Shown one piece after another: positions 1 to 9,185 of a DNA stretch of 9,185 nucleotides (its first letter is position 1; each line of letters opens with the position of its first letter). The translations under genes were made by a program, and so were the position numbers. Origin of the DNA: Naegleria gruberi (Eukaryota); the NCBI GenBank assembly GCA_000004985.1, contig GG739039.1. The stretch is one strand, 5' to 3'. A model generated the notes under the pieces. That model saw only the letters and a list, made by a program, of their open reading frames with translations, did no database searches and had not been told where the DNA came from.

Positions 1-1693
1 TTTCATTTAAATTTAAATTATCAATTACACTTAAATTTCTTAAATGTAAATAATTTCTAGTTTCATTTAACATTTGTTCTAAATCTTTTCTTTCCTTTTT
101 AAATTTAATAAATTCATTTTCATATTTAAAAATTAAATTTTCAATTTCATTTAAAATATTTAAAATATTTAATTCAATATTTAATGAAATATAAATATTA
201 TTTAATTTTTCATCATATTTAATTTCATTATTATTATTATTTAAAATAATTATATTTAATTCTTTATTATTAAAAATATAATTAGAATTTAAAAATAAAT
301 TTAAAATATTTAAATATTTATCATTATGAATTAAATCATCATTTGAACATGTAATTTGATTTATATTTAATTTTTGTGAAATTAATTTTTCTAAATTTAT
401 AATATTTAAATAATGTTTTTCATAATTTTTAATTTTAATAATTTCCTCTTTTGGTAAATTAATTAAAAAATCAAACCAAATTTTAGGAGATTCATTTGGA
501 TTAAAATTAATATATCCTAATTTATTTATACCTGTATTTCCATTTCCAAATTTAATTTCAATTTCTTGATTTAATATTTTTCTAATTAATAATATTTCAT
601 ATGGATATTCTATTTTTAGTAAATTAATTTCATGTTTAATCATTTCTTTTTTTCCCCAATTAGAAGTATCAACTCCATATTTAGTATTTAAATAATTTGT
701 AAATTTTATAATTATTTGATATTGTTTTTCAAATGAATTATCATAAATATTAAATCTAATTGATTTACTATTTATATATTCATTAATTTTATTTCTAATT
801 AAGGAAGTTAATATTTCAAATCTACGAATATATAATATTTCAAAATCTAAATTTTTATTTTTAGAATATTCATTTATTTTATTTATAATTATAAATGGAT
901 TATTATTTGAAATATTATCATCATTAAAATTATTATTATTAAAATTATTATTAAAATTATTAAAATTATTTAATTTTTTAAAATTTTTAAAATAATATTC
1001 ATTTAATTTATTTATATTTTCATTTTCATTATATTCTAATAAATTTAATAATAAATTTAAATTAAAAATAAAACAATCTAATTGTTGATTTGTAGATAAT
1101 TTAATATTTAAAGGTAAACCATATAAAGTAATTTCAAATGGTTTTTCAATATTTTTTTTATAAAATTTAAAATTATAAATATTAAATTGTTTTTCATAAT
1201 TATTTAAATTATTATTTAAATAACCTTTATATTCATCTAAAAATGTTTGAAATATTGTTAATGATTTTGAATTTACTTTTTTAATTTCTTCATTTATAAA
1301 TAAATCTGGATGTGTTAATTTATATAATTTCCTTATTTGTTTTTTAATTTCTATACTTGATTCAATTGATTGATTTGATTGATTCGATTGATTATTAGAA
1401 TGATTATTAGAATGATGATTATATTCATGTTGATTAGATTGATTAAATGATTGATAATGATAATATTTAATATTATAAATATTATAAATATTATTAACAT
1501 GATGATGAGAGTGAGAAGGATAATTTATTAGACAATTCGGAATGAATAAAGATTTTATCATTATTTTACTATTAGAATGATGATGATGATAGAATGTACA
1601 AGTATTAATTCTACCAACAACTCTAAAAATATTGCCACCATTGTTATTGACAATGTGGGTGTGTTGATAAAATGATTGTTTAAATCTTTTCAT
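1..1693 (-). CDS. TCAIM-like protein (DUF4460/DUF4461 family, HPD motif; putative mitochondrial), 3'-partial: ORF runs off the window start
   Basis: Checked by hand: there is no in-frame stop on the minus strand from the ATG at 1693-1691 down to position 1 (>=564 codons) in ~85% AT DNA. An in-frame TAA lies immediately upstream of the ATG, and the start context is AAAAAAAATG. The N-terminal ~100 aa are rich in R/K/H and lack D/E, which looks like a presequence. The segment IRKLYKLTHPDLFINEEIKKVNSKSLTIFQTFLDEYK resembles the TCAIM/C3orf23 motif ALRPFYFAVHPDFFGQHP...NENSLKRLSVYLENL. Not listed in the ORF track because there is no stop within the window. Confidence 0.75.
   Translation of the reverse strand, partial: MKRFKQSFYQHTHIVNNNGGNIFRVVGRINTCTFYHHHHSNSKIMIKSLFIPNCLINYPSHSHHHVNNIYNIYNIKYYHYQSFNQSNQHEYNHHSNNHSNNQSNQSNQSIESSIEIKKQIRKLYKLTHPDLFINEEIKKVNSKSLTIFQTFLDEYKGYLNNNLNNYEKQFNIYNFKFYKKNIEKPFEITLYGLPLNIKLSTNQQLDCFIFNLNLLLNLLEYNENENINKLNEYYFKNFKKLNNFNNFNNNFNNNNFNDDNISNNNPFIIINKINEYSKNKNLDFEILYIRRFEILTSLIRNKINEYINSKSIRFNIYDNSFEKQYQIIIKFTNYLNTKYGVDTSNWGKKEMIKHEINLLKIEYPYEILLIRKILNQEIEIKFGNGNTGINKLGYINFNPNESPKIWFDFLINLPKEEIIKIKNYEKHYLNIINLEKLISQKLNINQITCSNDDLIHNDKYLNILNLFLNSNYIFNNKELNIIILNNNNNEIKYDEKLNNIYISLNIELNILNILNEIENLIFKYENEFIKFKKERKDLEQMLNETRNYLHLRNLSVIDNLNLNE
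1361..1450 (-). repeat. (GATT/GATTGA)n-like coding repeat (QSNQSNQSIES / HSNNHSNN) in the TCAIM-like gene
   Basis: gattgattgatttgattgattcgattgattattagaatgattattagaatgatgatt. Low-complexity expansion, in frame. Confidence 0.8.
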
Positions 1694-1759
1694 TTTTTTT
1701 TAAAAATAAATTGAAATTCAACTCAACCACTAGATGATTAAATTGTCAATTAGTTGTTT

Positions 1760-1820
1760 GGTTGGATGTTTAAAATGATAAGAACGATAGTGCTTCAAGA
1801 ATCCATTCAAACATCCAACC
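1760..1820. repeat. 12-bp inverted repeat (GGTTGGATGTTT ...37 nt... AAACATCCAACC) 70-130 bp upstream of the TCAIM-like ATG
   Basis: Arms at 1760-1771 and 1809-1820 are exact reverse complements. Confidence 0.85.
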
Positions 1821-2374
1821 CTCTAAACATTTCACAAACCAATGACCAAATTCTGTGTTTGATTAATAGTACATTGAGAACCTTCACAGATAACGTTGGA
1901 ACGGTTGAAGATATAATCTATTATTGAAGCCAATGACTTTTTGGTTCATTCCAATAATGAGTGATTCAGTATGAATATCAGGGATATTTGTTGAATCAAT
2001 GGACAACAATTCAATGATCGTTGTGAATCGAAATGGTCATCTTAGGCAAGCCAGCAGCTCCAACTTGGAATGATCATTCCATAGCTTCCAAAGAATCCAA
2101 CCCATACCAACTGATGATTTCCAGGCTTCCTCTATAGATTTGAAAAGATTGAGTGGGATCACAAATTGTTTGATGTGGAAACATCTACTCACAAATTTAG
2201 GAACAATCATGTTCAGCTTAGCAACATGATTAATCATATCTATGCTTGAAATTAGGCTTTCATCAACGTTTGTAATTGTACTTATTCAATAGTATAACAT
2301 ACATTAATTCATGGTGTTTCATTGACGTACGCTAAGCGCTGCTATATCTTATTCATGGAATTACATATTATTGC

Positions 2375-2425
2375 AGCACATTGTGATAACGATAAATACG
2401 AACGGGTTAGTTATCACAATGTGCT
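2375..2425. repeat. Perfect 16-bp inverted repeat (AGCACATTGTGATAAC ...19 nt... GTTATCACAATGTGCT): strong hairpin
   Basis: Arms at 2375-2390 and 2410-2425 are exact reverse complements. The spacer is GATAAATACGAACGGGTTA. Confidence 0.9.
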
Positions 2426-3031
2426 CTCTACATTTAGTACTACGTAATTATATGATATTTCTTGTGTACTTACGTTAATACAATTACTTGGAGTCAATTA
2501 TCAATGTAGTTTGTGAGTATTTATTAACTTGCAATTAATGTGAGAAATATATTTACAACAGAATAACGAGAACATCAATCAATATGCATGAACTTCAGAA
2601 TTCCATCGTTACGAACCATCTATAAAATTCAACTCCAATCCAGAATATTTATTACCTGTGGCTATTCCAACACATAGACTATTTTAAGAGTCACCAAAAC
2701 GTACCACTGAAAATCAATCACACTTGCTTCTTTTAAAGGCTTTTGGAAATTCTCGATTAGTTTAGTTTTCTTTGGAAGTAAATTTAAGCTAATATTTCAG
2801 AATTTGAGTTTTCCAATAGTAAGGTGAACAAGATAGATTTGCTGAACAATTTCGAAGGTGAAATTAATAGACGAAAGTTGGATTATCCTTGCATTCTCTC
2901 TGGGTTTTGCTCAATTGGCTTTTTTGGAATTGATTTTTCTTTTGTAAATTAGCATCTGGAAATACTGGCCACAAACTGTTGTGAGCTTGTAAAACGATAA
3001 TCTCATTAAATTAGTAGTAATAAATAATTTA

Positions 3032-3402
3032 TTAAACAAACATGAATAAAGAATCCCATAATCTCTGTAACCAATTCTTTTCTTTTGTTTGTACTAAATA
3101 AGTAGAATTTGAATGTGAATTACAAAATACTTTCCATAAAATTCCATTTTTAGATTTTGCAACACTTGTTAATTTTGTTGGTAATTTTCTATTTTCAAAA
3201 TCACCTAATCCTAAATTACCATACTTGTTACAACCACTCATATAAAATTCTTGTTTTGAATTATTACTATTTTTAGATTGAGTTCCTATAAATATTGAAT
3301 GACACATTCCACATTCTACATCTATTATTTTACTATTTAATGTTTCATTTTCAAAATATTCTACCATGTTAAATTCATATCTATTTTTAACATCTCCTAA
3401 TC
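3032..3402 (-). CDS. RCC1-repeat protein, exon 4 (LGDVKNRYEF...GCNKYGNLGLGD...FMFV, stop TAA 3034-3032)
   Basis: Acceptor tttatttatAG| at 3404-3403 joins the phase-1 G of exon 3 to GA TTA GGA GAT, giving GQLG-LGDV. ORF-track ORF 3032..3367 lies in the same frame. The RCC1 motifs VECGMCHSIFIG and GCNKYGNLGLGD are present. Total model length is 1443 nt = 480 aa. Confidence 0.75.
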
Positions 3403-3469
3403 CTATAAATAAATAAAATAATAAATAATAAATAAATTAAATTAATAAATAAATTAAATAAAAAATTAC
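3403..3469 (-). other. Spliceosomal intron 3 of RCC1-like gene (GTAATT...TATAG, 67 nt; (AAATAA)n repeat inside)
   Basis: The ORF-track translation ...DGQLGNFLFNLFINLIYLLFIILFIYRIRRC is read-through of this intron. GT/AG splice sites are present. Confidence 0.75.
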
Positions 3470-3908
3470 CTAATTGACCATCTTCATTTTTACCAGTTGA
3501 AAAAACTTCACCATTTTCAGTAACAACAATGGTATGATCTAAACCACATGAAATAGCTCTAATAGTAGGTGATTCATCCATATATGGATAAGGATATCTA
3601 AAAATAGGTTTTTTAGGAGTGAATGAATATCTAATTGATTGACCCATTCCAATTTCACCATTTATATTAAAACCACACATAAATAATTTACCAGAATTTG
3701 ATAAAAAAGCAGAATGACATGCACCTGTTGAAATATGTGAAATAAAATCACCTTCATAAGCCATATAATCAAAATAATCTAATCTAATAGGTTTACTTAT
3801 ATAGGAAAAATCTATTAATTCCCCTTTTGGATTTATATACACTTCATTTTTAACACGTTGTTCCATCACTTTAGGATCAATTCCTAATTGTCCAAATATA
3901 TTTAATCC
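3470..3908 (-). CDS. RCC1-repeat protein, exon 3 (GLNIFGQLGIDPK ... STGKNEDGQLG)
   Basis: ORF-track ORF 3387..3869 reads through intronic sequence at both ends. The in-frame extension upstream of its Met encodes KGLNIFGQLG and then hits a stop 5 codons further up, consistent with the acceptor aaaaaaAG|GGA at 3910-3909. The donor TTA G|GTAATT at 3469 follows ...DGQLG. Blades include ISTGACHSAFLSNSGKLFMCGFNINGEIGMG and ISCGLDHTIVVTENGEVFSTGKNEDGQLG. Confidence 0.75.
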
Positions 3909-4016
3909 CTTTTTTTAATAAATATTATTATTATTAAAATATTATTATTAAATTAAATTAAAATATTATTAAAATATTAAATATTAAAATATTAATAAAA
4001 TTATATAAAAACATAC
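3909..4016 (-). other. Spliceosomal intron 2 of RCC1-like gene (GTATGT...AAAAAAAG, 108 nt; (ATTAAAAT)n-like AT microsatellite inside)
   Basis: Canonical GTATGT donor. AG acceptor followed in frame by an RCC1 motif. The exon frame upstream of the acceptor is closed by TAA. Confidence 0.7.
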
Positions 4017-4099
4017 CATTATATAAATATGATGATCTCTTGTTAATATTATAGTATGAAAAGCACCACATGCAATAGATGCTACCTTTTCAGGTAATT
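4017..4099 (-). CDS. RCC1-repeat protein, exon 2 (ELPEKVASIACGAFHTIILTRDHHIYIM)
   Basis: Acceptor ..ctaaaatAG| at 4101-4100 and donor ATG|GTATGT at 4016. The exon encodes an RCC1 blade core (IACGAFHTIIL..DHHIY) and restores frame from phase 1 to phase 0. Confidence 0.55.
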
Positions 4100-4164
4100 C
4101 TATTTTAGTAAAATGATTTCTATATTTAATTTTCATAGATAAACCTAATTGACATATAAATAAC
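4100..4164 (-). other. Spliceosomal intron 1 of RCC1-like gene (GTTATT...TAG, 65 nt)
   Basis: GT/AG boundaries, AT-rich. Alternative in-frame pairing: donor TAT|GTCAAT (4153) with acceptor AAAAG| (4087-4086). Confidence 0.5.
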
Positions 4165-4714
4165 CTTTATCAGTTGAAATAAATGTAAAATCTCTTCCAC
4201 ATACTACATTTGTAATAAAATCTTTATAATTTAATTCTTTTTCTAATTCTTTAATTTGAATTTCTAATTCTTTATTTCCATATTTAGTATTTTCATTTTT
4301 AATATTATTATTATTATTATTATTAAAATTATTATTATTATTAATAATAGGATTTAAAACATGATCAATATCAATATGAGTTGACATTTCAATTTTTTCC
4401 ATATGTTGTTGATACATTTTTTTATCCATTTGTGGATTTAAATTTTGTAAAAAAGAAGAAACATTTCCAACACCAACTTGACCAAATTCATTCATTCCAA
4501 TTCCATATAATTTACCTTTACTTGTTAATAAAAATGAATGTTTTTCACCTGATGATATTTGTTTAATTCTTTCATCTTTTTGTAATGGAATTGTATTGGA
4601 AAATGTTAATACATTTCTATTTATATTATCATGAAGAAATAATTGATAAAATTCATTATATCCACTTGAAAATAATCCTGTTTTATATGAAGATAACCAT
4701 CTACTACTAGTCAT
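4165..4714 (-). CDS. RCC1-repeat protein, exon 1 (Met at 4714-4712; ends phase 1 at AAG|GTTATT donor)
   Basis: ORF-track ORF 4145..4714 contains an RCC1 blade (IKQISSGEKHSFLLTSKGKLYGIGMNEFGQVGVG). Exon end is inferred from the donor AAG|GTTATT at 4164 and from frame continuity with exon 2. A poly-Asn tract and an ELEIQIKELEKEL coiled-coil-like insert lie inside. Confidence 0.65.
4301..4346 (-). repeat. (AAT)n coding microsatellite (poly-Asn NNNNNFNNNNNNN) inside RCC1-like exon 1
   Basis: (ATT)n on the plus strand. In frame within ORF 4145..4714. Confidence 0.85.
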
Positions 4715-4715
4715 T

Positions 4716-4770
4716 TATGTTATGTTGTGTTGTGTTATGATGTTGTGTTGTTGTTGTATTGTGTTATATT
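4716..4770. repeat. (TGTTG/TGT)n tract, read as (CAACA/ACA)n on the transcribed strand, immediately 5' of the RCC1-like start codon
   Basis: tgttatgttgtgttgtgttatgatgttgtgttgttgttgtattgtgttat directly abuts the ATG at 4714-4712. It forms a CA-rich leader on the minus strand. Confidence 0.8.
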
Positions 4771-4821
4771 ATTATTTATATAAAAGTAATTGATTATTAT
4801 TGTTGAATGGATAATGATGGT

Positions 4822-4920
4822 GATGATGATTGTGTGGTGGTAGGAGAATAATGTTTTGTTTTTTTAAAAACAATAACACGGATTATTTACAAAATTAATA
4901 TATTGGATGATGATTGTGTG
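4822..4920. repeat. Two copies of the 15-mer GATGATGATTGTGTG (4822-4836 and 4906-4920) in the RCC1-like upstream region, with adjacent GTGTGGTGGTAGG G-box-like sequence
   Basis: Exact 15-bp direct repeat 84 bp apart, 110-205 bp upstream of the ATG on the minus strand. Confidence 0.8.
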
Positions 4921-5104
4921 TAGATAATGATGCAAAATCACAATATATTTACTACTACTGTCTCTGTTGGGTGATGAATTTTTTTATAATTATTTAATTG
5001 TTTATTATTATTTCTCATCACGGAATGAAATGATTCGGTGATTTAAAAGAATCCTCCCTTGTTCATTCTATCAGATCAGCATGTAATGATTAATATTTTG
5101 ATTG

Positions 5105-5110
5105 TTTATT
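5105..5110 (-). terminator. AATAAA polyadenylation signal candidate ~85 nt downstream of the TPR stop codon
   Basis: TTTATT on the plus strand equals AATAAA on the minus strand. In AT-rich DNA this has low specificity. Confidence 0.3.
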
Positions 5111-5193
5111 ATTATTCATTTGAATTTAATCAAATGGAAATACTTGGTAATAGTAATACAGATTTTCATTGTTTTGATTGACAAAGTTAATCG

Positions 5194-7398
5194 TCACATC
5201 ATTTCAGAACCCTGGTTTGCTTGATTTTCTAATTCAAGAGCTTTAGTGTAATCTTGAATGGCATTGTCAAAATCACCCATTGAATCAAAAGCACTTCCTC
5301 TGTTGAAATAAGCATTAGCATTTGTTGGGTCCAATTCAATTACTTTGGTAAAATCTTGAATGGATCGAGAATAATTCTTCAGTTTTTCATATGAAATTCC
5401 TCTATTATGGTAGGCATGAACATTCTTTGGATCAATCTTTATCACTCTATCATAATCAGCAATAGCCAACTCGTATTGAGATCTCTTAGCAAATGAATAA
5501 CCTCTATTATTTAAAGTCTTGATATTATCAGGTTCAAATTGAAGAGTTGTTGTATAGTCCTTAATAGCCTCATCATATTTACCTAGTTTTCTATAGGAAA
5601 ATCCTCTATCAATAAATGCTTGAGTATTGTTTGGATTCAATTCAACAGCTCTTGAATAATCAGCAACTGCCTTTTCATATTGACCCATATTCTTATAGGT
5701 TGTAGCTCTATTGATGTACATGGTTGGACTAGGAGTTGTCTCAAGTGAAATTACAGCTGTGAAATCATTAATAGCATCATCGTATTTTCCAATTCTATCA
5801 TTTAATAACCCTCTTGAAATAAATGAAGGAATATTGTGAGAATCGAGTTTGATAGCTGTCGACCAATCCTTAATTGCTTCCTCAAACATTTCTGCCTTTT
5901 CAAAAGAGCTACCTCTGTTATGATAAGCATTGATATTCTTTGGATCAATACCCAAAGCCAAAGTGTAATCGTCGATAGCCTTCTTGAAATTAGAAATCTT
6001 GTCATAGCAAAATGCTCTATTATAATAGGCTTTAAAGTGCTTAGGGTTGATTTGAATTGCTTTAGTGTAATCTTGGATAGCTTTATCAAATTGTCCAATC
6101 TTACGATATGAAAATCCTCTATTATGGAAAAAGTCAGCATTACTTGGGTCAATATCTATAGCTTTGGAAAAGTTTTCAATTGCCTTACTATATTGTTGTA
6201 ATCTATCATATGAAATACCTCTATTATAGTACGTGTATGAATTTCTTGGTTCAATATTCAATGCTATTGTGTAATTTTCAATAGCCTTTTGATATTGTCC
6301 CAATTTATCATATGAAAAACCTCTATTGAAATAGGCCTTGAAGTGTTTTGGATTCAATTCAATGGCTTTGGTATAGTCTCTGATAGCAGAAAGGAAATCT
6401 CCCTTTTTACGATGTGAGAATCCTCTAGAGTGATAGTAATCAGCATTCTTCACACTGACATTATCTTCTTGAGCATTACCTCCGCTCACTGTGCTGATGG
6501 AATCTTCTTGTACACTAGCAGCATCTTCTGTCGAGTTAAATTCATAATCATTATTATTCAAATCATCTTCATAGGTTGGTGAACTGTTAGCAACAGAGTT
6601 TCTACCACTACCTGCACTATTCAAACTAGCAAAGCTATTTGTTGAGGAGAAGGATTGAGATCTTGGCCTAATACTAACTGCAGGAGATACTGGATTTCCG
6701 ATTGCATTATTACTAACACTATTCATTAGAATACTAGCACCCGATGGAGTAGTATTAATTGTTAAAGAGTTAGTACTCATTGTGCTATTATTCAAACTAG
6801 AAGGAATGTTTGAGAGTCCACTATTGAAAATGGATGAATCTCTCATCATACTTGCCTTAACATTTTCCTCTTTTTGCTTCATATATTCCTCAAAAGAGCT
6901 GTGACCCTCAGCGAGATATCTTGGAACTCTTCTTCTTCTCTTTGGAGATGATACTTGTTGACTCTTCTCTTGATCTCTTTCTAAGGCAAATTCATAATCA
7001 AGAATAGCAGCTTGGAAATTACCTCTTCTATTATGACAAGCTGCTTTGCTATAGCCAGCATTAACATGGTTCGGATCAATTCTCAATACACTTGAATAAT
7101 CTTCCAAAGCCTTGTCTAACAATTCTATTTTCTCAAAACATTGTCCTCTATTAAAGTGGGCATTAACTAGTGAATTAGTAGTACCTCCTCCAATCAACAT
7201 TTGATTTGAATTATTTAGAAATGATGCACTTGTTACACTCATCTTACTCGAATTACTAGTAGGACTATTACCACCTCCCATATGTAATATATCAATTATT
7301 GTTGAATAATCTTGAATAGCTCTATCATATTCATCCTTCTTAGTGTAGGATTGTGCTCTAGCTACAAGAGCCTTTACATTTGAAGGATCGGCAATTAA
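5194..7398 (-). CDS. TPR-repeat protein, exon 2 (LIADPSNVKALVARAQSYTKKDEYDRAIQDYSTIIDILHMGGGNSP... ~13 tandem 34-aa TPRs ...GSEMM, stop TGA 5196-5194)
   Basis: ORF-track ORF 5194..7281 (695 aa) has tandem TPRs of the form Y.NRGFSY.KLG.Y.KAI.DY..AI.L.P....AY.NRG. The frame stays open 39 codons upstream of its first Met and encodes a further canonical TPR (DPSNVKALVARAQSYTKKDEYDRAIQDY). It ends at an in-frame TAG preceded by tatatAG|TTA at 7400-7399, which is the intron acceptor. A Ser/Asn-rich low-complexity linker lies at ~6480-6900. Two-exon total is 818 aa. Confidence 0.8.
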   Translation of the reverse strand, partial: LIADPSNVKALVARAQSYTKKDEYDRAIQDYSTIIDILHMGGGNSPTSNSSKMSVTSASFLNNSNQMLIGGGTTNSLVNAHFNRGQCFEKIELLDKALEDYSSVLRIDPNHVNAGYSKAACHNRRGNFQAAILDYEFALERDQEKSQQVSSPKRRRRVPRYLAEGHSSFEEYMKQKEENVKASMMRDSSIFNSGLSNIPSSLNNSTMSTNSLTINTTPSGASILMNSVSNNAIGNPVSPAVSIRPRSQSFSSTNSFASLNSAGSGRNSVANSSPTYEDDLNNNDYEFNSTEDAASVQEDSISTVSGGNAQEDNVSVKNADYYHSRGFSHRKKGDFLSAIRDYTKAIELNPKHFKAYFNRGFSYDKLGQYQKAIENYTIALNIEPRNSYTYYNRGISYDRLQQYSKAIENFSKAIDIDPSNADFFHNRGFSYRKIGQFDKAIQDYTKAIQINPKHFKAYYNRAFCYDKISNFKKAIDDYTLALGIDPKNINAYHNRGSSFEKAEMFEEAIKDWSTAIKLDSHNIPSFISRGLLNDRIGKYDDAINDFTAVISLETTPSPTMYINRATTYKNMGQYEKAVADYSRAVELNPNNTQAFIDRGFSYRKLGKYDEAIKDYTTTLQFEPDNIKTLNNRGYSFAKRSQYELAIADYDRVIKIDPKNVHAYHNRGISYEKLKNYSRSIQDFTKVIELDPTNANAYFNRGSAFDSMGDFDNAIQDYTKALELENQANQGSEMM

Positions 7399-7460
7399 CT
7401 ATATAATCATCATCATTTAAAATTAATTCATCTCCAAATAATAATAATATTAATACAAAC
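7399..7460 (-). other. Spliceosomal intron of TPR gene (GTTTGT...TATATAG, 62 nt)
   Basis: GT/AG boundaries, ~90% AT. Both flanking exons are in phase 0, and the junction joins TPR-like sequence. Confidence 0.55.
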
Positions 7461-7712
7461 CTTCTTGGTACATGATTCAATAACCTTGTCCAAATTAACG
7501 TTCTTTCTATAGTAAAATGTTCGGTGGGGATGACTCTTTGCTTCGTCTTCCTTATCTAAAAAGTCTTTCCGCTTACATAGCGAACCCTTAGTCATTATAT
7601 CATACAATGCATTTTCATCATCCTCCAAGTCTTTGGAATAATATTGCTCATAATTGAATGAAGCAGCAATATTGTTCGCATTCATGGATAAAGGCTTGTT
7701 GGATACTTTCAT
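7461..7712 (-). CDS. TPR-repeat protein, exon 1 (MKVSNKPLS...NVNLDKVIESCTKK; ATG at 7712-7710)
   Basis: ORF-track ORF 7428..7712 has an AAAAAAAATG start context. The proposed donor AAG AAG|GTTTGT at 7460 is in phase 0, matching the phase-0 acceptor of the downstream exon. Confidence 0.55.
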
Positions 7713-7897
7713 TTTTTTTGGCGCTGTTTTTTTACGTTATCAAAAAACATATAGAGAGCTGCTGAGAGAGTTACTAAGGCGACAATGTTTAAATCGTAAC
7801 GGCCAAACATTTTAAAACCAAACAACGGAGGGACCAATTCCTCCACTGCTGTATATTGGATCAAATTACAAACAGTTACTTTTAGCGCCACACACAA
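7709..7897 (-). other. 62-codon upstream ORF (MCVALKVTVCNLIQYTAVEELVPPLFGFKMFGRYDLNIVALVTLSAALYMFFDNVKKQRQKK) ending in ATGA overlap with the TPR gene start
   Basis: ORF-track ORF. Its TGA (7711-7709) overlaps the TPR ATG (7712-7710). The codon usage (GCG, CCG, GGC, CGT, GTC) is atypically GC-rich for this genome. One hydrophobic segment. The coding status is unproven. Confidence 0.15.
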
Positions 7898-8119
7898 GTG
7901 ACTCTAATGGTGAGCTATTATCCACAAAACATCCAGATAATAACACGGGTGTTTAAATAGATGAAAGATTCTTTCTCTCAATAATATGACTAAAACAATA
8001 ATTGAAAATACAATACAAGTACTAATGATTTATTTTCTTCCATTACCGCGCAGCATCACTACCAAACTAGGAAAGACTTCAAACAAGGCTAAAATAATTA
8101 TTGAAGAGAATCAAAAAAA
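7713..8119. promoter_or_regulatory. Divergent intergenic/promoter region between the TPR gene (minus) and the orphan gene (plus); unusually GC-rich, with a CA-rich CACACACAAG motif and GGGTGTT
   Basis: Flanked by two divergently oriented ATGs, both in AAAAAAAATG context. Contains an inverted TGGCGCT/AGCGCCA pair (7721-7727 / 7885-7891) and the small hairpins AATGTTT..AAACATT (~7786-7815) and GGAGG..CCTCC (~7839-7856). Confidence 0.5.
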
Positions 8120-9185
8120 ATGCAGCAAGATGATGAACAATCTTTAATTACTCCTTCATCTACTAGTGTTGCGCATTATGATAACCATCATCATAGTAAT
8201 AGTAATAATAGTAGCAGTAGAATAGTAGATCATTATAGTAGTAAAAACTTTGATATTCAATCTCCTATTCGAATATTAATTGAAAAGGCTAGGAATGTTG
8301 GAATACAAATTAATGATGCTGATGTTGATGATTTATTTATAATACATAATGATGAACAAGATTTAATGAAGGCTTTAAAATTATTAATTTCATTAGATGT
8401 TATTCTGATAAGACAATCTAATAATAGTGATGATAATGATAACAATGATTCTGATAATAATGATTTAATTATTGATACTAAACTTGTAAAATTAATGGAT
8501 GAGTTTCTTCCAAATTTACTTTCTGTTTCTAATTATAAAATTGAAATTTCATTTGAATATTCAAATTTACCAATAAGACAAGATGAAATTTCACCTCAAC
8601 AATTATTTATCATTTCACATTTTATTAAGGAAATGGAAAGTTTTTTATCTAAATTTGGACCTAAAATATTTCAAAATCAATTAATTAATATTCCAACATT
8701 TTTAATAATGTATTTATATTATATTTCAAGTAATATTAAAAAATGTCATGAAAATGGTATTAATTGGAATTTACCAAATCAAGAACAATTACTAATTTTA
8801 TCAATAATTACATTTTTATCAAATTATTTTAATTCTAGTGAACAATTTTTACCAAATTCAATTCAATTAATTAGAATTTTATATGAAATTAGTGAATTAC
8901 CAATGAATTTTAATAATTATACAGAAATATATCAATTATTTAATAGATTAATAGAAATTTATACAAGTTTACAAAATAATAATAATATAAATAAAGAAAT
9001 ATTAAAACAAAATAATTTAATTAATTTATTAGAAAGAGATTTTAAACAAATAGAAGATTTACCTCTTAATATTAAAATTATACCTAAATTTAAATATTCA
9101 TATGGAACTAGTATTATTGTAATTCAATTAAAATTATTAAATTTTATTAAAAATATTAAAAATAATGAAATGATTAAATTTATTC
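8120..9185 (+). CDS. Hypothetical protein (orphan, Asn/His/Ser-rich N-terminus), 3'-partial: ORF runs off the window end
   Basis: ATG at 8120 in AAAAAAAATG context, with an in-frame TGA 18 nt upstream. Hand scan shows no stop in 355 codons to the window end. Begins MQQDDEQSLITPSSTSVAHYDNHHHSNSNNSSS... and I recognise no domain. Not in the ORF track because there is no stop in the window. Confidence 0.7.
   Translation, partial: MQQDDEQSLITPSSTSVAHYDNHHHSNSNNSSSRIVDHYSSKNFDIQSPIRILIEKARNVGIQINDADVDDLFIIHNDEQDLMKALKLLISLDVILIRQSNNSDDNDNNDSDNNDLIIDTKLVKLMDEFLPNLLSVSNYKIEISFEYSNLPIRQDEISPQQLFIISHFIKEMESFLSKFGPKIFQNQLINIPTFLIMYLYYISSNIKKCHENGINWNLPNQEQLLILSIITFLSNYFNSSEQFLPNSIQLIRILYEISELPMNFNNYTEIYQLFNRLIEIYTSLQNNNNINKEILKQNNLINLLERDFKQIEDLPLNIKIIPKFKYSYGTSIIVIQLKLLNFIKNIKNNEMIKFI

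What the first reader, a model, noticed from the sequence alone, without database searches (positions are those of the whole stretch)
2375..2425. Perfect 16-bp inverted repeat with a 19-nt loop inside the GC island
AGCACATTGTGATAAC (2375-2390) and GTTATCACAATGTGCT (2410-2425) are exact reverse complements. A 16-bp perfect stem is highly unlikely by chance in 9 kb. It could be a hairpin ncRNA or miRNA-like precursor, a transposon terminal or subterminal structure, or a palindromic protein-binding site. The half-site TGTGATAAC/GTTATCACA is itself partly palindromic.
Basis: seen in the sequence. Interest (0 to 1): 0.55.

Follow-up and report, generated by a model that had tools for sequence, protein, structure and literature searches.

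The report
Lone perfect hairpin in Naegleria spacer
A flawless 16-bp inverted repeat really exists in a non-coding gap between two genes of the amoeba Naegleria gruberi, but nothing links it to a gene, RNA family, transposon or repeat family, so it is most likely a harmless scar of DNA-replication template switching.

Summary
In detail: AGCACATTGTGATAAC (2375-2390) and its exact reverse complement (2410-2425) flank a 19-nt loop. The window is a complete 9185-bp scaffold of Naegleria gruberi. The 'GC island' (32% GC) is simply genome-average composition (35%); the flanking genes are the unusually AT-rich part. The repeat sits in the middle of a 1.3-kb spacer with no coding signal, about 700 nt upstream of gene A's ATG and about 630 nt past gene B's stop. 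A stem this long is unlikely in this window (p about 0.001-0.002), but 3-8 are expected by chance in a 41-Mb genome. Complementarity stops abruptly at both ends of the stem. There is no Rfam match, no tRNA, no target-site duplication, no second copy in the window, and no copy with both arms among the 221 loci returned by three public-collection scans (the metagenome scan was truncated). The surrounding 231 nt are not significantly structured. At 16 bp the stem is too short for a Dicer-type precursor. No orthologous spacer could be recovered, so conservation is untested. Best reading: a young, probably neutral inverted duplication made by short-range template switching. Rivals are a palindromic protein-binding site or a small hairpin RNA. 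Interest is low.

The parts
2375..2390 (.). Left arm of the perfect inverted repeat (AGCACATTGTGATAAC)
   Evidence: Read directly and matched exactly.
2391..2409 (.). 19-nt spacer or loop (GATAAATACGAACGGGTTA). It has no internal complementarity and, counting the arm-loop junction, contains 3 CpG.
   Evidence: 1 of 9 inward positions complementary.
2410..2425 (.). Right arm, the exact reverse complement of the left arm (GTTATCACAATGTGCT)
1694..3031 (.).
   Evidence: Stop-codon density in all six frames equals that of shuffles. No Pfam domain in any frame. The only weak hits to the 66-aa ORF are tandem-repeat artefacts. Orthologs place gene B's true stop at 3032.
1..1693 (-). Gene A. It is very AT-rich and Asn-rich, has a weak DUF4461 match and runs off the window. 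Its ATG at 1693 is 707 nt from the hairpin centre.
3032..4714 (-). Gene B, an RCC1-repeat protein (NAEGRDRAFT_76585). My exon model is 4714-4165, 4144-4017, 3908-3470 and 3402-3032. Its stop is 632 nt from the hairpin centre.
1760..1820 (.). A second, independent perfect inverted repeat in the same spacer: 12-bp arms GGTTGGATGTTT / AAACATCCAACC with a 37-nt loop, lying 67-127 nt upstream of gene A's ATG
   Evidence: 2 stems of 12 bp or more observed against 0.02 expected; 0 of 400 shuffles; unrelated in sequence to the 16-bp repeat.

Best explanation
The element is a single, isolated, perfect inverted duplication in non-coding intergenic DNA of Naegleria gruberi. It was most likely created in one step by a short-range replication template switch (or snap-back repair synthesis). 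In such an event the polymerase briefly copies the opposite or nascent strand and writes a reverse-complement copy of a nearby 16-nt stretch 19 nt away. It can form a hairpin in single-stranded DNA or RNA, but there is no sign that the cell uses it, so I treat it as a young and probably neutral mutational scar. What is shown: the repeat is real, perfect, sharp-edged and single-copy in all accessible sequence; it lies in non-coding spacer; and it belongs to no described RNA or transposon family. What is inferred: the template-switch origin and the lack of function.
For: The arms match 16 of 16 and complementarity falls to chance level immediately outside and inside the stem (4 of 15 and 1 of 9). 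That is what discrete switch points produce, and it is not the look of an old, decaying long palindrome. [quoted passage not shown] The spacer has no general excess of short stems (7 or 8 bp and up are as in shuffles), yet it holds two long perfect repeats, 16 and 12 bp, where 0.02 are expected, and the two are unrelated in sequence. That pattern fits discrete events better than composition. There is no coding signal, no Rfam family or tRNA, no larger structure, and no recurrence of the arm or its half-sites. Public scans found no locus with both arms and no match extending beyond 20 nt. A comparable 12-bp perfect repeat downstream of the N. fowleri ortholog is missing from N. lovaniensis, where a 26-nt gap removes one arm and the loop. 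So such repeats can be lineage-specific in Naegleria spacers.
Against: No outgroup sequence for this spacer was obtained, so the ancestral, non-palindromic state that would prove a template switch has not been seen. N. fowleri, N. lovaniensis and Willaertia are not syntenic here. The sibling-strain contig covering the spacer could not be retrieved. Pure chance is not excluded, because 3-8 such stems are expected per genome. The neighbourhood shows a weak local excess of CpG (o/e 1.57 in 2300-2500) and of ACGT cores (6 against 2.2 expected, p about 0.03), which could hint at a regulatory patch. Transcription data were not available.
Confidence: 0.45

Rival explanations
1. Pure coincidence: an unselected 16-bp reverse-complement match that a genome-scale scan is bound to pick up.
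For: Simulation and analytic rates of 0.08-0.2 per Mb give 3-8 expected in the 40.9-Mb genome. No functional signal of any kind was found.
Against: Within this window the probability is about 0.001-0.002. A second, independent 12-bp perfect repeat lies in the same 1.3-kb spacer (expected 0.02; 0 of 400 shuffles reach two stems of 12 bp or more).
Confidence: 0.15
2. A DNA-level cis-regulatory palindrome: two identical 16-bp half-sites in inverted orientation, bound by a dimeric or paired transcription factor that controls gene A, or an unannotated transcript in the spacer. Each arm contains WGATAR-like TGATAA and CATTGT cores; recognising these as known motif types is from my own knowledge and is not a tool result.
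For: The element lies in the 5' intergenic region of gene A (707 nt from the ATG). There is a weak local enrichment of CpG and ACGT-core palindromes around it. Template-switch expansion of inverted repeats in promoters has been linked to dimeric transcription-factor binding in yeast (PMC13100816 abstract).
Against: The 19-nt spacer puts the half-site centres about 35 bp apart, which is unusual for a dimer. The half-sites do not recur in the other two intergenic regions of the window and appear only at chance frequency in 70 kb of related loci. A distance of 700 nt is long for a promoter in a gene-dense genome (N. lovaniensis is 77% coding; PMC6125883).
Confidence: 0.18
3. A transcribed hairpin RNA: a small structured ncRNA, a non-canonical short-hairpin small-RNA precursor, or a stability or 3'-end element of a spacer transcript.
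For: The hairpin is stable on either strand (-23.9 and -23.5 kcal/mol, z about -4). Template switching is a documented route to new hairpin RNA genes (PMC10710096, PMC8794818).
Against: A 16-bp stem with sharp ends cannot yield a 21-22-nt Dicer duplex. There is no Rfam match even at E<=1. The wider context is not structured. No T-run or other 3'-end signal is adjacent. An AATAAA sits right at gene B's stop, so the hairpin probably lies outside that mRNA.
Confidence: 0.12
4. A remnant of a mobile element: the paired terminal inverted repeats of a tiny MITE, a Helitron 3' hairpin, or an excision footprint.
For: Inverted 16-mers superficially resemble terminal inverted repeats, and the N. gruberi genome is reported to be 5.1% repeats (PMC6125883).
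Against: The flanks (TTATTGC | CTCTACA) show no target-site duplication. At 51 bp the unit is far below MITE size. There is no CTRR motif 10-12 nt downstream on either strand, and the stem and loop are too long for a Helitron hairpin (sequence). There are no other copies in the window or in related loci, and no transposase-like signal in six frames.
Confidence: 0.04

Closest known systems
Template-switch-mutation (TSM) inverted repeats, including quasipalindrome-to-palindrome conversion (PMC7954356, PMC8794818, PMC8604942)
   Same: A perfect reverse-complement copy a few tens of nt from its source, with sharp boundaries, located in non-coding DNA, and creating a stable hairpin potential from nothing.
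   Different: The defining evidence, an ancestral sequence lacking the repeat in an outgroup, could not be obtained here. The assignment therefore rests on anatomy and on excluding alternatives.
Young microRNA-like hairpins born by template switching (PMC10710096)
   Same: A perfect stem, single-copy and lineage-specific.
   Different: The stem is 16 bp, too short to contain a miRNA duplex of about 22 nt. There is no evidence of transcription or processing, and I found no paper describing hairpin-derived small RNAs in Naegleria.
Palindromic dimeric transcription-factor sites
   Same: Two identical half-sites in inverted orientation in a 5' intergenic region.
   Different: The half-sites are much longer (16 bp) and further apart (19 nt) than typical dimer sites, and the motif does not recur elsewhere in the accessible sequence.
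MITE or TIR transposon ends and the Helitron 3' hairpin
   Same: Short inverted repeats that can fold.
   Different: No target-site duplication, no copies, no CTRR end, and the wrong size.

Membership tests
Template-switch-generated inverted repeat | A perfect reverse-complement copy of a nearby sequence within a short range (tens of nt) | tested here: met
   16 of 16 match with a 19-nt spacing.
Template-switch-generated inverted repeat | Discrete switch points, meaning complementarity ends abruptly | tested here: met
   Outward 4 of 15 and inward 1 of 9 positions are complementary, which is the chance level.
Template-switch-generated inverted repeat | The ancestral or outgroup sequence lacks the repeat and differs by a clustered change that reverse-complement copying explains | not testable with these tools
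   N. fowleri, N. lovaniensis and Willaertia are not syntenic here. A sibling strain exists (run ERR1078381, 97.7% identical), but its spacer contig could not be fetched.
miRNA-like or Dicer-substrate hairpin | A stem long enough to hold a duplex of about 21-22 nt (usually an imperfect stem of 30 bp or more) | tested here: not met
   The stem is 16 bp and does not extend.
miRNA-like or Dicer-substrate hairpin | Small RNAs of defined size mapping to the arms | not testable with these tools
   No expression data are available.
Any described RNA family (Rfam 15) or tRNA | A covariance-model or ARAGORN match | tested here: not met
   No match at E<=1 anywhere in the window and no tRNA or tmRNA.
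MITE or TIR DNA transposon | A target-site duplication flanking the terminal inverted repeats | tested here: not met
   The flanks TTATTGC and CTCTACA share no duplication.
MITE or TIR DNA transposon | Multiple dispersed copies | tested here: inconclusive
Helitron 3' end | A short GC-rich hairpin 10-12 nt upstream of a CTRR terminus | tested here: not met
   No CTRR at the right distance on either strand, and a 16-bp stem with a 19-nt loop is atypical (sequence).
Palindromic transcription-factor binding site | Recurrence of the half-site upstream of other genes | tested here: not met
   No 9-mer or longer piece of the arm recurs elsewhere in the window. There are only chance-level hits in related loci. 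The test is limited to about 80 kb of sequence.
Palindromic transcription-factor binding site | Specific protein binding | not testable with these tools
   This needs an experiment.
Protein-coding or pseudogene sequence | An open frame, low stop density or homology | tested here: not met
   Stop counts equal those of shuffles. No Pfam match in six frames. The ORF66 hits are tandem-repeat artefacts. The deposited exon in the spacer is contradicted by orthologs.

The most novel reading that the evidence does not exclude
The hairpin, possibly together with the 12-bp one 600 nt away, is a newly born functional element in Naegleria. It would be either a template-switch-created hairpin RNA gene processed by a non-canonical short-hairpin pathway, or a long-arm palindromic operator for a heterolobosean DNA-binding protein. 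Such a case would show de novo birth of a regulatory hairpin in a deep-branching eukaryote.
Probability: 0.1. Interest if true: 0.5.

Novelty: new member of a known kind. Interest (0 to 1): 0.15.

Why it matters
As it stands it matters little. It is one more short perfect inverted repeat of the kind that replication template switching scatters through eukaryotic genomes. It also shows that 'improbable in this window' does not mean 'improbable in a genome scan'. It would become interesting only if the sibling strain showed the pre-switch ancestral sequence, which would be a clean and datable template-switch event in a heterolobosean, or if expression data showed it to be a newborn hairpin RNA. 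The side findings have practical use for anyone working with the N. gruberi annotation: a mis-annotated terminal exon, a probably unannotated 819-aa TPR gene, and a possibly decaying RCC1 gene.

Tried and rejected
1. Rfam at E<=1 and ARAGORN over the whole window found nothing.

2. Scans for the 16-mer in metagenome, viral and prokaryote collections returned 221 loci, all single chance matches. None had both arms, and no match extended beyond 20 nt.

3. Identifying the organism through the TPR protein and gene A failed. The gene B search succeeded.

4. Orthologous loci from N. fowleri, N. lovaniensis and Willaertia were fetched, but they are not syntenic and show no homology to the spacer.

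5. I tested whether the small 80-aa gene that lies downstream of the orthologs is hidden in the spacer. It is not.

6. I tested the spacer as a decayed gene: stop density, six-frame Pfam, and an exhaustive HMMER search with the 66-aa ORF. Its three hits are tandem-repeat proteins that inflate a short weak match. Rejected.

7. I tested for a larger structured RNA around the hairpin. z is about -2, so rejected. In sliding windows the hairpin ranks among the top three for z-score but is not unique.

8. I tested whether the two spacer hairpins are related. The alignment score equals that of shuffles.

9. Exact-product look-ups to recover the sibling-strain contig over the spacer: 9 window ORFs were tried and only the 94-aa TPR exon-1 ORF hit.

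10. Literature searches for Naegleria small-RNA hairpins and inverted repeats, and for the sample accession, found nothing relevant.

Full report
OBSERVATION. The sequence at 2375-2425 reads AGCACATTGTGATAAC-GATAAATACGAACGGGTTA-GTTATCACAATGTGCT. The two 16-mers are exact reverse complements separated by 19 nt. As RNA it folds to -23.9 kcal/mol on the + strand and -23.5 on the - strand (z about -4; 0 of 200 dinucleotide shuffles fold as well). As single-stranded DNA it folds to -15.2 kcal/mol (z -5.9). It is the longest perfect short-loop stem in the window; the next longest is 12 bp.

WHERE THIS IS. The window is eukaryotic. It uses the standard code, encodes Asn-rich proteins and has short AT-rich GT..AG introns. 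The spliced RCC1-repeat gene on the minus strand matches 'predicted protein [Naegleria gruberi]' (XP_002668499.1, NAEGRDRAFT_76585), and that protein's contig is 9185 nt long, exactly the window length. The window is therefore one complete small scaffold of N. gruberi. That genome is 40.9 Mb, 35% GC and 5.1% repeats (PMC6125883). The compositional outliers are the flanking genes A, B and D, at 14-21% GC overall and 8-9% in some windows.

GENE MAP.
- Gene A lies on the minus strand at 1-1693. It has a weak DUF4461 match and its ATG is at 1693.
- Gene B lies on the minus strand with exons 4714-4165, 4144-4017, 3908-3470 and 3402-3032.
- A TPR gene lies on the minus strand at 5194-7712, with an intron at 7399-7460.
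- Gene D lies on the plus strand from 8120 and runs off the window.
The deposited gene B model ends in an extra exon placed inside the spacer. However, N. fowleri, N. lovaniensis and Willaertia orthologs all align to the unspliced C-terminus that ends at 3032. The spacer 1694-3031 is therefore non-coding throughout. The hairpin centre is 707 nt upstream of gene A's ATG and 632 nt beyond gene B's stop. An AATAAA sits right at that stop.

IS IT MORE THAN CHANCE? In sequence with the spacer's dinucleotide composition, a perfect stem of 16 bp or more with a 3-60 nt loop occurs 0.08 times per Mb analytically and 0.2 times per Mb by simulation (4 in 20 Mb). That is about 0.001-0.002 per 9-kb window, but 3-8 per N. 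gruberi genome. The element is locally significant, yet a genome-wide scan would surface a handful of such stems with no biology behind them. One further fact counts against pure chance. The spacer also contains the window's second-longest perfect repeat, 12 bp at 1760-1771/1809-1820. Two stems of 12 bp or more are seen where 0.02 are expected (0 of 400 shuffles), while stems of 7 and 8 bp and up are at the expected frequency. The two repeats are unrelated in sequence. A normal bulk distribution with two discrete outliers looks like discrete events, or selected elements, and not like a compositional effect.

WHAT IT IS NOT.
- It is not coding. Stop density in all six frames equals that of shuffles, and no frame has a Pfam domain. 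The only ORF of note is the 66-aa ORF at 2037-2237 on the minus strand. An exhaustive HMMER search of 1.84 billion representatives gave it three weak hits, all tandem-repeat proteins in which one short match is multiplied across copies.
- It belongs to no described RNA family. There is no Rfam match at E<=1 and no tRNA.
- It is not part of a larger fold. The 231-nt context has z -1.9 and -2.0 on the two strands.
- It is not an extended, miRNA-like stem. Complementarity drops to chance level immediately outside the arms (4 of 15) and inside them (1 of 9), and 16 bp cannot hold a 21-22-nt duplex.
- It is not a transposon end. There is no target-site duplication, the unit is only 51 bp, there is no CTRR terminus, and there is no second copy in the window (the single 3-mismatch match at 8170-8185 lies inside gene D's coding sequence).
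- It shows no sign of being a repeat family. Arm k-mers occur at chance frequency in 70 kb of Naegleria and Willaertia loci. Scans of the metagenome, viral and prokaryote collections gave 221 loci with single matches only, none with both arms and none extending beyond 20 nt.

CONSERVATION. This is the test that would decide the question, and I could not complete it. The loci holding the gene B ortholog in N. fowleri, N. lovaniensis and Willaertia have entirely different neighbours, and none shows any similarity to the spacer. That agrees with the low N. gruberi / N. fowleri synteny reported in the literature (PMC6125883). A much closer relative does exist. The 94-aa ORF covering TPR exon 1 occurs in contigs from run ERR1078381, which are 97.7% identical to window 5810-8435. 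In the intergenic region 7713-8119 they differ by only 5 substitutions and one 4-nt indel in 407 nt. I could not reach that sample's contig over the hairpin.

One indirect comparison is available. N. fowleri carries a 12-bp perfect repeat about 100 nt downstream of its gene B ortholog, and N. lovaniensis lacks it, with a 26-nt gap removing one arm and the loop. Perfect repeats in Naegleria spacers can therefore be lineage-specific.

MOST LIKELY MECHANISM. A perfect, sharp-edged, single-copy, short-range reverse-complement duplication in non-coding DNA has the anatomy produced by replication template switching. [quoted passage not shown] I commit to this reading at about 0.45, and I regard the element as probably neutral. 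The origin and the neutrality are inferences; the anatomy and the exclusions are shown. At the observed between-strain divergence, 32 perfect arm positions would usually survive the strain split. They would not survive species-level divergence, so the repeat is either fairly young or maintained.

RIVALS.
(a) Pure chance, 0.15.
(b) A palindromic protein-binding site in gene A's upstream region, 0.18. There is a weak local excess of CpG (o/e 1.57 in 2300-2500) and of ACGT cores (6 against 2.2 expected, p about 0.03). The arms carry TGATAA and CATTGT cores; recognising those as known motif types is from my own knowledge. Against this, the half-sites do not recur and the 19-nt spacer is long.
(c) A transcribed hairpin RNA, 0.12. 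It is thermodynamically plausible, and template switching is a known route to new hairpin genes (PMC10710096). But the stem is short, it matches no family, and no expression data were available.
(d) A mobile-element remnant, 0.04.

VERDICT. Nothing is surprising for a specialist. Interest is low (0.15). The result that could raise it is the ERR1078381 or other-strain comparison described under next steps.

Noticed in passing
window 2864-3135 (minus strand): The deposited N. gruberi model XP_002668499.1 splices after '...GILWK' into a terminal exon inside the spacer ('IIVLQAHNSLWPVF...NPTFVY*', stop about 2864). N. fowleri, N. lovaniensis and Willaertia orthologs instead match the unspliced end '...KVFCNSHSNSTYLVQTKEKNWLQRLWDSLFMFV*' (stop 3032). 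This is a likely annotation error.
   Followed up: yes
window 4100-4170 (minus strand): Gene B lacks the RCC1 blade motif 'CGSNLYGxLG' that its orthologs have, and the DNA is 2 nt out of frame (GYLYV|gt|QLGLS). The reading frame is rescued only by a 20-nt GT..AG micro-intron (4145-4164) or by the larger intron used in the deposited model. This could be a decaying gene or an assembly error.
   Followed up: partly
window 1-1693, 3032-4714 and 8120-9185 versus 1694-3031 and 5194-8119: The composition is a strong mosaic. Genes A, B and D are 14-21% GC overall (8-9% in some windows), carry poly-Asn insertions and have CpG o/e of 0.06-0.38. The TPR gene and two of the three spacers (1694-3031 and 7713-8119) are 32-34% GC, near the 35% genome average; the third spacer, 4715-5193, is 25% GC. 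In this scaffold the coding DNA is more AT-rich than most of the intergenic DNA.
   Followed up: partly
window 5194-7712 (minus strand; intron 7399-7460): An 819-aa TPR-repeat gene has no N. gruberi entry among 5.8 billion proteins. The best hit is 55% identical over 51% of the query. The best named hits are from Trebouxia, Phytophthora, ciliates and trypanosomes. The gene is probably unannotated in N. gruberi.
   Followed up: partly
window 1743-1837: A second perfect inverted repeat has 12-bp arms (1760-1771 / 1809-1820) and a 37-nt loop, and sits within a 37-nt, 70%-complementary quasi-palindrome. It lies 67-127 nt upstream of gene A's ATG. On gene A's sense strand (the minus strand) the RNA folds to -28.2 kcal/mol, so it could be a 5'-leader structure.
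   Followed up: partly
window 2320-2480: There is a local cluster of CpG (8 in 201 nt, o/e 1.57) and ACGT-core or short palindromes (TGACGTACG, AGCGCT, TACGTAA, TTACGTTAA) around the hairpin. The island holds 6 ACGT against 2.2 expected (p about 0.03). This is weak and not corrected for multiple looks.
   Followed up: partly
L225 and L226 (ENA ERZ929261 / Logan ERR1078381), aligned to window 5810-8435: A metagenome sample contains an N. gruberi-like strain 97.7% identical to this scaffold, and about 1.3% diverged in the 7713-8119 spacer. It would be a ready outgroup for all non-coding features of the window.
   Followed up: partly
L223:12181-12228 versus L224: N. fowleri has a 12-bp perfect inverted repeat (TCAATAAAGGAG...CTCCTTTATTGA) about 100 nt downstream of its gene B ortholog. 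N. lovaniensis lacks it, with a 26-nt gap over one arm and the loop.
   Followed up: partly
window 8170-8185: A 13-of-16 match to the hairpin arm (TGCGCATTATGATAAC) lies inside gene D's coding region. About 0.08 matches at 3 or fewer mismatches are expected by chance in the whole window. It is probably coincidental.
   Followed up: no
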